Program-made: the position numbers | Origin: a virus | Taxonomy: Duplodnaviria > Heunggongvirae > Uroviricota > Caudoviricetes | Virus record (IMG/VR): IMGVR_UViG_2531839193_000016 | Strand: one strand, 5' to 3' | Length of the DNA: 64,000 nucleotides | Shown here: positions 21,001-24,000 of the stretch, piece by piece | Layout: each line of letters begins with the position of its first letter | Numbering within the stretch: position 1 is the first letter of the stretch

Positions 21001-24000
21001 GGACGGGTAAACAGCTGCTTGCCGAGCGTTTCCCTGACACGTCGCGCCTGCTGCTGGAAGACTGGGAGCGTTATCTCGGGCTTCCCGAGTGTGATATGGC
21101 CGGAGCCACCCTCACGGAGCGACAGCGTTATGCCGGAAATAAATACCGGATGAAGCCCTCGCTGAACCGTGAATTTTATATCCGGTTTGCGGCGGAGTTT
21201 GGTTATCAGATTGACATTCAGCCCTCACCGGATTCGCAGTGGGTCAGTATTGTCACGATTAACAGTGAAACCGGCTACCGGAATATGAATGTGCTGGATG
21301 ATATTCTCACGCCGCTGCGTATTTATGAAGGCGGTGCGCTGGAATGTATTCTGAACCGTTATAAGCCTGCATGGCAGACGTTTATTTACGTTTATGCAAA
21401 CAGCCATGAAGAGGAGACTATTTAATGTTTCATGTTGATAATAATTCCGGCGTGGCGAATATGCCTGCGCTGGCACCGGCGCAGAGTAATACCACCACCT
21501 GGTTTACCGAAGGTGACGGACAAAAGGTATCAGCTGGATTGGTCAGGACTGGCTGAATATTCTCCAGGCCGAACTGCTGAATATTCTGGCTGAAGCCAGT
21601 ATTCAGCCGGATAAGGCGCAGTTAAACCAGCTTACGCTGTCCATTAAAGCCATTATCGCTGCGAATGCCTTTTCCCGGAAAAATAACCTGAAAGAAATTG
21701 CTGATGCCGGTGCGGAGGCCCAGCGTCTGGCCCGTGGTTATCTTGGTCTGGGGACGCTTGCCACAAAAAACAGTCTTGGTCCCGCTGACGTTAATGCCCT
21801 GGCGAAGGATCAGAATCTCGCCGACCTGGAGAATAAGGGAACCGCCCGTAATAATCTGGATGTTTACAGCAAAAGCGAAGGTGATAACCGTTACCTGCGC
21901 AGGGAGCAGAACGGCGCAGACATTCCGGATAAAGGGGCTTTTATCGATAACGTCGGTTTACGGGAAACGGTAAACAGGGCGGCGAATGCCCTGCCATCGG
22001 ACGGCACCGCCGTTGCCGCGAACAGGCTGGCAAATGCCCACACAATTAATGGTGTTCCCTTTGACGGGACGCAGGATATCACTATCTCATCAGGAACAGT
22101 AACCGCCATAAGACTGGGGTCGGTGACCGCACATATGCCCGGAACATGGGAAAGCTGGGATCTGAATCTGGGGGGCGGCAATGTTCTTACCGGAATTAAA
22201 GTACAGGATGTCGGTAAGAATACGGCAGATAACGTCGGCGGCGTGTATTACCGGCCGTTGCAGTATCTGTTAAATGGAGCATGGGTGACGGCTGCAAGTA
22301 TATAATGATATTCAGAAGGCCTTCCGGCCTTCTTTATTACTGTGGCTGCTCAGGCCATTTAATGGCGTTAAATTCAGCTTCTGTTTTAATGGCGGGTAGT
22401 TCCATTTTCTTCACCTGACTGATGTATGCCATCCATTGGGTAAGTGCTGCTCTGTCTTCATCGCTGATGGTGCCCAGTTGTAGCTCCGTTCTCCAGTCAT
22501 TAATTTTTTCATATGCCTGATTAAGATATGACTGGCGCATTGCTTCCAGTTTTCTTGCGTAGTTAACCGGAATACGGGAGATTATGCCATTATCAAACTT
22601 CCAGTTTCCTGAAATATCCGTGCCTTCAGGGAGTTCATCGACCTCAACCACAGAAAACCCCGCAGGATACAGCGCCGAGGCGTCCTGTGATATTGAGCAG
22701 ATAACGCCGCTGTCAGGTGTTATGCAAAGTTTATATTTTTTGGTGAATAATGGCAGGGATTCGTAGAAATCCTTACCATCTTCACTCTGGAAATACTGAA
22801 CATTATTACCATATGGCATATTTTCAGGATAATAACGGGTTATATTTTTTAGTTCCATAAAATCCTCCTGGAAATAAATCTGTTTTAAAATATATTATTT
22901 ACTGACTATTTATAACTGAGATACCGTAATCCATGTACCTCCGACTAATTTTTGCAGGGGTCTGAATGCTATAAAATCGTTTGAAGCATCAACTTTACTG
23001 TCAATCTGCAGGCCTGCCATAACATTACCGTACGCAGAGTAATATGCCCCACCGTACATTACCTGCCTGTTCTCTGCTCCCAGCCTGATATCCTGGATAT
23101 ATCGGGAATCCGCATCCTGCTGTGTTATACCAGAAGTGATGTTTATGTCCTGCGTCCCGTCAAAGGGAACCCCATTAATATTTCTTGGGGTGGCGAGTCT
23201 ATTCGCGGCAACGGCGGTGCCGTCCGATGGCAGAGCATTCGCCGCCCTGTTTACCGTTTCCCGTAAACCGAGGTTTTCAGGAAAGCCAGGATTAACTCTG
23301 TTTTATTCCTCATGCGACAATTCCGGCTTTTTATAATAAGGAAATCGTATGCTGATTGGGTATATCAGGGTGTCAACAAATGACCAGAATACGGCGCTAC
23401 AAAGAAATGCGCTGGAATGTGCAGGATGTGAGCTGTTTTTCGAAGACAGAATAAGCGGTAAGACAAGGGAGCGTCCCGGACTTAAACGCGCATTAAAGCG
23501 ACTCCGGCCAGGGGATACCCTGCTGGTCTGGAAACTGGATCGCCTTGGACGCAGTATGCAGCACCTTGTCCTTTTAACAGAAGAACTCCGGCAACGCGGC
23601 GTTAACTTCCGCAGCATTACGGACAATATTGATACATCCACTCCCATGGGACGTTTCTTTTTCCATATAATGGGCGCGCTGGCGGAAATGGAGCGGGAAC
23701 TCATTATTGAACGTACACGCGCGGGTCTTGCTGCTGCCCGTGCTCAGGGGCGTCATGGCGGCAGACCTCAGAAACTGACAGAGAAAGAGCGGGAGCAAAT
23801 CGCCCGTTTGCTGGCTAATGGCGAGTCCCGTAAACAAATCGCACTGATATTTGATATTGGCCTTTCCACCCTTTATCGTTATTTTCCTGCCTCACCAGCT
23901 CCGTCACCAAAAGTACCGTGACGCTTTTTTGAATTTCCGCAAAACACATATTTTTCAGCGGTCGCTATTCTGACTCTGTTTAATTCAGAAACAGGCAGAA

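What the first reader, a model, noticed from the sequence alone, without database searches (positions are those of the whole stretch)
21941..23283. Gin-type invertible tail-fibre switch with recognisable gix sites
Two 26-bp sites in inverted orientation (21941-21966 and 23258-23283) match the Mu/P1 gix pattern and share the core dinucleotide. They bracket ~1.3 kb holding the 3' end of the expressed fibre gene (plus strand) and, on the minus strand, a start-less alternative fibre C-terminus followed by a tfa-like chaperone. The gin gene starts 66 bp outside the right site. Inversion would fuse the constant fibre N-terminus in frame to the alternative C-terminus.
Basis: partly seen in the sequence, partly recalled or inferred. 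Interest (0 to 1): 0.55.

Follow-up and report, generated by a model that had tools for sequence, protein, structure and literature searches.

The report
Mu-type invertible tail-fibre switch
This is a working copy of the classic phage Mu "flip-flop" that swaps the tip of the tail fibre by inverting 1.3 kb of DNA; it sits in a Mu-like prophage of E. coli and is ordinary, except that it carries one fibre-chaperone gene where Mu carries two.

Summary
Two 26-bp sites (21941-21966, 23258-23283) match Mu gixL at 22/26 and 21/26. Both have the TC core, in opposite orientations. They are the only such sites in the 64 kb; shuffled windows reach at most 18/26. They cap a ~150-nt inverted repeat.

Between them lie the expressed fibre tip (+), a start-less alternative tip (-) and one tfa gene (-). 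An intact 190-aa serine invertase starts 66 bp outside the right site. The host element is a Mu-like transposable prophage of E. coli, with com/mom downstream.

An in-silico flip at the core reproduces real E. coli genomes as one 99.7-99.9% alignment. About 20 complete genomes have the window's orientation and about 6 the other. Two strains carry one near-identical copy in each orientation. So the switch inverts in nature.

Two caveats:
- The window's fibre gene has a 1-nt homopolymer contraction at 21518-21521, probably an assembly error.
- There is only one chaperone gene, not the two of Mu, P1 and e14. It is anti-sense to the fibre gene in the window's orientation, which is the commoner one. 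How that tip is folded is unexplained.

Verdict: new member of a known kind, low to moderate interest.

The parts
21425..21953 (+). Constant part of the tail-fibre gene (Sc, 177 aa once the frameshift is corrected), outside the invertible segment. Carries a 1-nt contraction of an A run at 21518-21521.
   Evidence: Homologous to Mu S residues 1-191 (PDB 5YVQ_A, E 1e-46) and to phrog_1833 tail fibre. The frameshift is shown. Relatives have an intact 293-aa CDS.
21941..21966 (+). Left recombination site (gixL-like), core TC at 21953-21954. It lies inside the fibre reading frame, coding ..FIDNVGLRE..
   Evidence: 22/26 to Mu gixL. The exchange point in natural inverted genomes maps within 37 nt of the core.
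21955..22305 (+). Fibre tip cassette A (116 aa plus stop). This is the one joined to Sc in the window. No chaperone gene follows it on this strand.
   Evidence: Translation. The C-terminal ~70 aa are homologous to the tips of Mu S/S', P1 S and P2 H. dN/dS is 0.15 against STEC2017-197.
22314..22333 (+). GC-rich hairpin followed by a T-rich tail, between the convergent tip A and tfa genes. Terminator-like.
   Evidence: (I16).
22337..22858 (-). Tail-fibre assembly chaperone (Tfa, 173 aa). The only one in the segment and in this prophage.
   Evidence: Pfam Caudo_TAP E 5e-19; phrog_136; Mu U in PDB 5YVQ_B E 4e-16; 32-36% identical to Mu U/U'.
22910..23269 (-). Fibre tip cassette B (119 aa plus stop). 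It has no start codon and is silent in the window's orientation. After inversion it is joined to Sc and followed by tfa after a 51-nt spacer.
   Evidence: It is expressed as a 296-aa CDS in FORC_043 and CI5. Tfa-linked cassettes of other lineages give dN/dS 0.18-0.34.
23258..23283 (-). Right recombination site (gixR-like), core GA on + at 23270-23271, which is TC on the - strand.
   Evidence: 21/26 to Mu gixL when read on the - strand.
23349..23921 (+). Serine DNA invertase (190 aa), intact.
   Evidence: Resolvase E 2e-51 plus HTH_7; phrog_125 DNA invertase; 72/71/72% identical to Gin/Pin/Cin.
23367..23438 (+). Probable recombinational enhancer (sis) inside the 5' end of the invertase gene (CDS nt 19-90).
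   Evidence: The position corresponds to the enhancer annotated in P1 cin. Nucleotide identity to gin/cin/pin is 76-82% here against 64-70% in the rest of the gene. Third codon positions are 50-67% identical here against 32-41% elsewhere. This is inference; Fis binding was not tested.

Best explanation
This is a Gin/gix-type site-specific inversion switch for tail-fibre host range. It belongs to a Mu-like transposable prophage of E. coli.

The fibre gene is split. A constant 177-aa N-terminal part lies outside the segment. The last ~117-120 residues, the receptor-binding tip, are encoded by one of two cassettes that face each other inside a 1,317-bp segment.

The serine invertase encoded 66 bp to the right binds the two 26-bp sites and cuts at the shared TC core. 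It is presumably helped by Fis bound to an enhancer in the 5' end of its own gene. It then rotates and rejoins the DNA, which flips the segment.
- In orientation A (the window) tip A is read.
- In orientation B tip B and the downstream tfa chaperone are read.

Shown: sites, frames, an intact invertase, both orientations in nature, purifying selection on both tips.
Inferred: catalysis by this particular invertase, Fis dependence, different receptor specificity of the two tips.
For: - The sites match Mu gix and are unique in the window.
- The invertase is intact and typical.
- The in-silico flip at the core matches DLI.5a, TOE17, NCCP 13983 and FORC_043 as a single piece at 99.7-99.9%.
- About 20 complete E. 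coli genomes are in orientation A and about 6 in B.
- In IMG/VR loci the counts are 22 A and 5 B.
- DLI.5a and TOE17 each hold two near-identical copies in opposite orientations; AST46 pairs an A copy with a more diverged (95.9%) B-like copy.
- Among the near-identical copies with both arms readable, the two in orientation B swap all 22 informative positions of the inverted repeat as a block, and all but one of those in orientation A match the window at every position. The exchange therefore lies between the outer half-site and 36 nt inside the core.
- PGAP annotates intact 293-aa (A) and 296-aa (B) fibre CDSs in relatives.
- Both tips are under purifying selection, dN/dS 0.09-0.34.
- The prophage context is Mu-like: transposase A, B, gam, mor, gp46/47/48, com, mom.
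Against: - No read-level data from one culture, so inversion rate and current activity in this strain are unknown.
- The window's fibre gene is frameshifted at 21518-21521. If that is real, neither orientation gives a full fibre here.
- Several relatives have the invertase annotated as frameshifted. Some inversions may therefore be catalysed in trans by other Din invertases.
- In orientation A there is no co-transcribed chaperone, which the Mu model does not explain.
Confidence: 0.9

Rival explanations
1. The two orientations arise by RecA-dependent homologous recombination between the ~150-nt inverted repeats. On this reading the gix-like sites and the invertase are relics.
For: The repeat is long (86 nt at 93% plus 50 nt at 84%). 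In more diverged lineages its arms are mosaics of A-type and B-type positions, which shows gene conversion between arms. Several relatives carry an invertase annotated as frameshifted.
Against: In the inverted near-identical copies (L002, L005; left arm only for L017) the exchange lies outside the first informative position. That confines it to the 37 nt next to the core, about a quarter of the repeat. The invertase is intact in the window and under purifying selection (dN/dS 0.10 against the O157 copy). The site cores are identical, as site-specific inversion requires.
Confidence: 0.05
2. The switch is a fossil in this particular genome. The prophage is decaying, the fibre gene is truly frameshifted, and inversion no longer has any phenotype even if it still happens.
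For: There are frameshifts in the fibre gene (21521), the SASA/DUF6645 gene (24757) and elsewhere in the prophage. None of the ~20 complete genomes that match in the window's orientation shares the fibre frameshift: their matches are one base longer than the window, and the one equal-length match (DLI.5a) has an intact fibre CDS.
Against: Every single-base indel against JE86-ST05 in the 8.5 kb around the switch is a length change in a homopolymer run of 4 or more, and so are most of those across the 20 kb compared. They occur in both directions, and JE86 itself has several genes annotated as 'frameshifted'. That is the signature of long-read assembly error rather than decay. All other parts of the switch are intact.
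Confidence: 0.2
3. The switch is asymmetric by design. Because the single tfa flips with the segment, inversion toggles chaperone co-expression as well as tip identity. Tip A would then fold without Tfa, use a Tfa made from a promoter inside the segment or supplied by another prophage, or give fibre-defective particles.
For: There is exactly one Caudo_TAP gene in the segment in every close relative, and also in a Citrobacter braakii relative. It is anti-sense to the fibre gene in the commoner orientation. Both tips are selected. The tip B-tfa spacer is 51-121 nt, unlike the abutting (3 nt or less) fibre-chaperone gene pairs of Mu and e14. A TfaE-like gene exists in the neighbouring prophage.
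Against: No sigma70-like promoter was found on the tfa strand. The spacer is not conserved between lineages. Both tips are homologous to the Tfa-bound tip of Mu S, so independence from Tfa is not expected.
Confidence: 0.35

Closest known systems
Phage Mu G segment with Gin/gix (NC_000929, 31966-35025)
   Same: The gene order is the same: gp48 - S constant part - invertible segment - gin - (com, mom). The left site lies at the same codons of S (Mu ..FIQNLGLQE.., here ..FIDNVGLRE..). The TC core and an almost identical inner half-site are shared. The fibre N-terminus and tips and the Tfa are homologous to Mu S and U.
   Different: The segment is 1.3 kb rather than 3.1 kb. The variable part is 117-120 aa rather than ~335 aa, because the equivalent of Mu S residues ~200-430 is missing. 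There is one tfa instead of U and U'. The inverted repeat is ~150 nt instead of 34 bp. The invertase is only 72% identical to Gin. A 684-aa SASA/DUF6645 gene and two small genes lie between the invertase and com/mom.
e14 P segment with PinE (E. coli K-12, stfP-tfaP / tfaE-stfE-pinE)
   Same: It is a small segment (1.8 kb) with short fibre proteins. A YmfQ/gp48-like gene lies upstream and the invertase immediately downstream. The invertase here is 71% identical to PinE.
   Different: e14 has two tfa genes and a TT core. It is a lambdoid defective element, not a transposable phage.
Phage P1 C segment with Cin/cix
   Same: Long inverted repeats encode a shared start of the variable part. The enhancer lies in the 5' end of the invertase gene. 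The invertase here is 72% identical to Cin.
   Different: The P1 segment is 4.2 kb with two tfa genes (U, U'). The core is TT. The invertase lies on the side of the segment away from the constant part of the fibre gene, as here, but reads towards the segment rather than away from it.
Mu-like prophages of other E. coli, including O157:H7 (Sp18 is named as the O157 Mu-like prophage in PMC4406740)
   Same: The architecture is the same, including the single tfa. The constant fibre part is 95-99% identical.
   Different: The tip cassettes are only 52-64% identical, the Tfa 61% and the invertase 78%, so this is a different cassette set in the same scaffold. I did not verify that L010 is Sp18 itself.

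Membership tests
Din (Gin/Hin/Cin/Pin) serine DNA invertase systems | Small (~190 aa) serine recombinase with an N-terminal resolvase catalytic domain containing the active-site serine and a C-terminal HTH | tested here: met
   PF00239 E 1.6e-51 and PF02796 E 4.9e-15. GYIRVSTNDQ with Ser9 aligns with Gin, Cin and Pin, at 71-72% identity.
Din (Gin/Hin/Cin/Pin) serine DNA invertase systems | Two 26-bp imperfectly palindromic sites in inverted orientation with identical central dinucleotides | tested here: met
   22/26 and 21/26 to Mu gixL, TC core in both, unique in 64 kb, shuffles at most 18/26.
Din (Gin/Hin/Cin/Pin) serine DNA invertase systems | Fis-bound recombinational enhancer in cis, within the 5' part of the invertase gene | tested here: inconclusive
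   CDS nt 19-90 corresponds to the annotated P1 cin enhancer. It is more conserved than the rest of the gene, including at third codon positions. It also encodes the catalytic motif, and Fis binding cannot be tested here.
Din (Gin/Hin/Cin/Pin) serine DNA invertase systems | The segment is actually found in both orientations | tested here: met
   About 20 versus about 6 complete E. coli genomes, 22 versus 5 IMG/VR loci, and two strains with one near-identical copy in each orientation. Heterogeneity within a single culture was not testable.
Mu G-segment type host-range switch | Constant fibre N-terminus outside the segment, with two alternative C-termini inside on opposite strands, each in frame after inversion | tested here: met
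.
Mu G-segment type host-range switch | Each alternative fibre tip is followed by its own assembly chaperone gene (S-U and S'-U') | tested here: not met
   Only one Caudo_TAP gene is present (22858-22337). tblastn with five Tfa proteins finds no other in the prophage. The same holds in all close relatives.
Mu G-segment type host-range switch | Resides in a transposable Mu-like phage next to gin and com/mom | tested here: met
   Relatives identical in the switch region carry Mu transposase, B ATPase, gam, mor, com and mom, and are inserted at different chromosomal sites (ypdB, bglJ, an rhs region).
Mu G-segment type host-range switch | The two orientations give phage with different host range | not testable with these tools
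   The only evidence is indirect. The tips are 47% identical to each other, and cassettes differ strongly between lineages while the constant part is 95-100% identical.

The most novel reading that the evidence does not exclude
The single chaperone gene flips together with the fibre tips. In the commoner orientation a Mu-type fibre tip is therefore made without a co-transcribed Tfa. This would mean one of three things: a Mu/P2-class tip that folds without its chaperone; a chaperone expressed from inside the invertible segment regardless of orientation and shared by two tips only 47% identical; or a switch that also turns infectivity on and off. None of these is part of the Mu, P1 or e14 paradigm.
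Probability: 0.3. Interest if true: 0.45.

Novelty: new member of a known kind. Interest (0 to 1): 0.28.

Why it matters
It matters little for the principle, because Gin-type fibre switches have been textbook material since about 1980.

It is useful in practice:
- It marks a widespread prophage family, with related loci in 237 of 5,426 complete E. coli genomes. Its fibre tips are a small, swappable 117-120-aa module on a fixed scaffold, which suits host-range engineering.
- It warns annotators that the 'partial phage tail protein' and the 'hypothetical protein' at this locus are two halves of one programmed switch.
- The single-chaperone layout offers a natural test of how specific Tfa chaperones are.

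Tried and rejected
- I looked for a third or cryptic site. The best further match is 18/26 at 52150, inside lambda-like tail genes, which is at the level of shuffled sequence. Rejected.
- I looked for a promoter that could drive tfa in orientation A. There is no sigma70-like hit on the minus strand in 21300-24100. Aligning the tip B-tfa spacers of several lineages shows no conserved motif. Mu C-dependent late promoters could not be modelled.
- I looked for a second tfa in the prophage with tblastn, using the local Tfa, Mu U and U', and e14 TfaP and TfaE. The only other hit is in the neighbouring argW prophage.
- I tried to fetch CP066032.1, where Milman et al. 2023 (PMC9881135) confirmed by long reads a 1.47-kb inversion in a Mu-S-like prophage fibre gene. 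It is not in the collections.
- The genome-contig scan with the constant fibre part gave only four loci, among them Citrobacter and Edwardsiella relatives. The family is mainly found in E. coli in the collections searched.
- I tested whether the window's frameshift is shared by other genomes. It is not.
- I tested whether host genes in the window show the same indel type. There were none in 4.7 kb, which is too little sequence to decide.
- Contig breaks at the inverted repeat in IMG/VR are not evidence of mixed orientation. A repeat longer than the assembler's k-mer breaks assemblies anyway.

Full report
**1. Observation**

L (21941-21966) is TTATCGATAACGTCGGTTTACGGGAA. R (23258-23283) is TTCCCGTAAACCGAGGTTTTCAGGAA. 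Read on opposite strands they agree at 21/26. The inner half-site and the central TC dinucleotide are identical.

I read the Mu sites from NC_000929 rather than from memory. gixL is TTATCCAAAACCTCGGTTTACAGGAA and gixR is TTCCTGTAAACCGAGGTTTTGGATAA. The window sites score 22/26 and 21/26 against gixL. Apart from the palindromic R site itself read on its other strand (19/26), no other 26-mer on either strand of the 64 kb exceeds 18/26. Ten shuffled windows peak at 16-18.

The sites are the outer ends of a long inverted repeat: 86 nt at 93% plus 50 nt at 84%. This repeat encodes the shared first ~45 residues of the two variable parts.

**2. Anatomy**

- Plus strand: the fibre gene starts at 21425 and ends at 22305.
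- Minus strand: a C-terminal cassette without a start codon (23269->22910), then a 51-nt AT-rich spacer, then a 173-aa Caudo_TAP chaperone (22858->22337).
- A hairpin at 22314-22333 separates the convergent genes.
- A 190-aa Resolvase+HTH_7 protein starts at 23349, 66 bp beyond the right site.
- The crossover points are 1,317 bp apart.

**3. A flaw in the window**

The fibre ORF that opens at 21425 stops at 21556. The rest of the gene is in another frame with no start codon. Alignment with E. coli JE86-ST05 shows that an A5 run is A4 at 21518-21521.

All four single-base indels in the 8.5 kb around the switch are homopolymer contractions. Over 20 kb the two records differ by about ten single-base length changes in homopolymer runs, in both directions (plus a few indels at non-homopolymer positions), and JE86 itself has several genes annotated as 'frameshifted'. 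The other complete genomes matching in this orientation are one base longer, and the one equal-length match (DLI.5a) has an intact fibre CDS. I read this as assembly error (about 0.75), not biology. Short reads would settle it.

**4. What element it is**

Relatives that are identical in the switch region are full Mu-like prophages. They carry repressor, ner-like HTH, Mu transposase, B ATPase, gam, mor, Mu-type head and tail genes, gp46/47/48, the fibre, the segment, the invertase, a SASA/DUF6645 gene, com and mom. They are inserted at different chromosomal places: ypdB, bglJ and an rhs region. That is the behaviour of a transposable phage.

In the window the prophage runs off the left edge. 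It ends near 28413 in the fadL-yfdF intergenic region.

**5. Does it invert?**

I built the inverted sequence in silico by cutting in the TC core and searched all complete E. coli genomes.
- It matches DLI.5a, TOE17, NCCP 13983 and FORC_043 as a single alignment at 99.7-99.9%.
- The window's own orientation is found in about 20 genomes.
- PGAP annotates an intact 293-aa fibre in orientation A. In orientation B it annotates an intact 296-aa fibre followed by tfa on the same strand.
- DLI.5a and TOE17 each carry two near-identical copies in opposite orientations. AST46 pairs an orientation-A copy with a more diverged (95.9%) B-like copy.
- In IMG/VR, 22 loci are in orientation A and 5 in B.

The arms of the repeat differ at 22 scored positions. 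Among near-identical copies with both arms readable, the two in orientation B (L002, L005) have exchanged all 22 as a block. All but one of those in orientation A match the window at every position; L021 carries the other arm's base at the first position, which looks like gene conversion. The exchange therefore occurred between the outer half-site and 36 nt inside the core. That fits site-specific recombination and fits random homologous exchange along 150 nt poorly. Mixed orientation within one culture could not be tested.

**6. Invertase and enhancer**

The protein is equally distant from Gin (72%), PinE (71%) and Cin (72%). It keeps the catalytic serine motif and the conserved blocks.

P1's annotated enhancer covers cin CDS nt 19-90. 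In the window the same stretch is 76-82% identical to gin, cin and pin, against 64-70% for the rest of the gene. Third codon positions are 50-67% identical there against 32-41% elsewhere. This suggests a DNA-level constraint but does not prove an enhancer.

**7. Fibre and chaperone**

Both fibre versions match Mu S (PDB 5YVQ) over residues 1-191. They match again over the last ~70 residues of the tip. About 230 residues of the Mu shaft have no counterpart. The tips also resemble those of P1 S, SfMu S and P2 H. Tfa matches Mu U (5YVQ_B).

Between lineages the constant part is 95-100% identical. The cassettes drop to 52-64%, which is typical cassette exchange. Both the tfa-linked and the tfa-less cassettes are under purifying selection, with dN/dS 0.09-0.34. 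Both are therefore in use.

**8. What does not fit Mu**

Mu, P1 and e14 each carry one chaperone gene per tip. Here there is one. The same holds in every close relative and in a Citrobacter braakii relative, whereas a more distant relative (L049) has two.

In orientation A, which is the window's and the commoner one, tfa is anti-sense to late transcription. I found no sigma70-like promoter on its strand and no conserved motif in the spacer. There is no second tfa in the prophage. A TfaE-like gene lies in the neighbouring argW prophage. How tip A is folded remains open.

**9. Comparison and verdict**

The switch works like the Mu G segment and meets the defining features of a Din-family inversion system. 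It fails one feature of the Mu layout: paired S-U and S'-U' genes.

Programmed inversions in prophage fibre genes homologous to Mu S have been confirmed by long reads elsewhere (Milman et al. 2023, PMC9881135). Mu-like prophages of E. coli O157 are known (PMC4406740).

This is a new member of a known kind. Interest is low to moderate, and the single-chaperone asymmetry is the only point worth an experiment.

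Noticed in passing
window 12166, 13657, 15722, 16105, 17598, 19764, 21521, 24757, 26067, 27550: Single-base homopolymer length differences against the JE86-ST05 prophage, in both directions. Several break ORFs in one record or the other. This looks like long-read assembly error rather than prophage decay.
   Followed up: partly
window 24007-26060: The gene just after the invertase encodes a 684-aa protein in relatives, with a sialate O-acetylesterase-like SASA domain and a C-terminal DUF6645. In the window the 24757 indel splits it into 261-aa and 405-aa ORFs. 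Mu has nothing at this position. It could be a tail-associated or surface-modifying esterase.
   Followed up: partly
window ~27395-28290 and 28413: By offset from relatives, com and mom homologues lie at the right end of the prophage. The prophage-host junction is near 28413 in the fadL-yfdF intergenic region.
   Followed up: partly
window 28530-29988: An IS110-like element (ISEc20 family) is inserted 116 bp beyond the prophage end. It interrupts sequence that is contiguous in K-12.
   Followed up: partly
window 34199-34273 and about 34.3-54+ kb: A second prophage is integrated at tRNA-Arg(CCU) (argW). It has a CPS-53-type integrase, lambda-like tail genes at 50.5-54 kb and a TfaE-like gene at 38580-39140 (minus strand). 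That gene is a possible trans source of chaperone.
   Followed up: partly
window 52150-52175: An 18/26 match to Mu gixL sits inside lambda-like tail genes. Its last 12 nt are identical to the outer half of the right site. The score is at the level reached by shuffled sequence.
   Followed up: yes
L019, L025, L028, L033, L038-L040, L045, L047 (IMG/VR contigs): Many short viral contigs end within a few dozen bases of the left site. Assemblies break at this inverted repeat, so the locus is often fragmented in draft genomes.
   Followed up: no
L013 (Citrobacter braakii ATCC 51113) 4501-8371; L049 4501-8632: The C. braakii relative has a longer fibre (472 aa) but also a single, convergent tfa before the invertase. 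The more distant L049 has the canonical two tfa genes. The chaperones at both loci (the one in L013 and both in L049) carry a DUF4376 domain.
   Followed up: partly
L021 5018-5190; L003, L012, L029, L032-L036 repeat arms: Outside the near-identical group the two arms of the inverted repeat are mosaics of A-type and B-type positions. This indicates gene conversion or cassette exchange between the arms.
   Followed up: no
window 23136-23336 (+): A 66-aa ORF anti-sense to tip cassette B is annotated as a hypothetical protein in some RefSeq genomes (WP_071995513.1). It is probably spurious.
   Followed up: no
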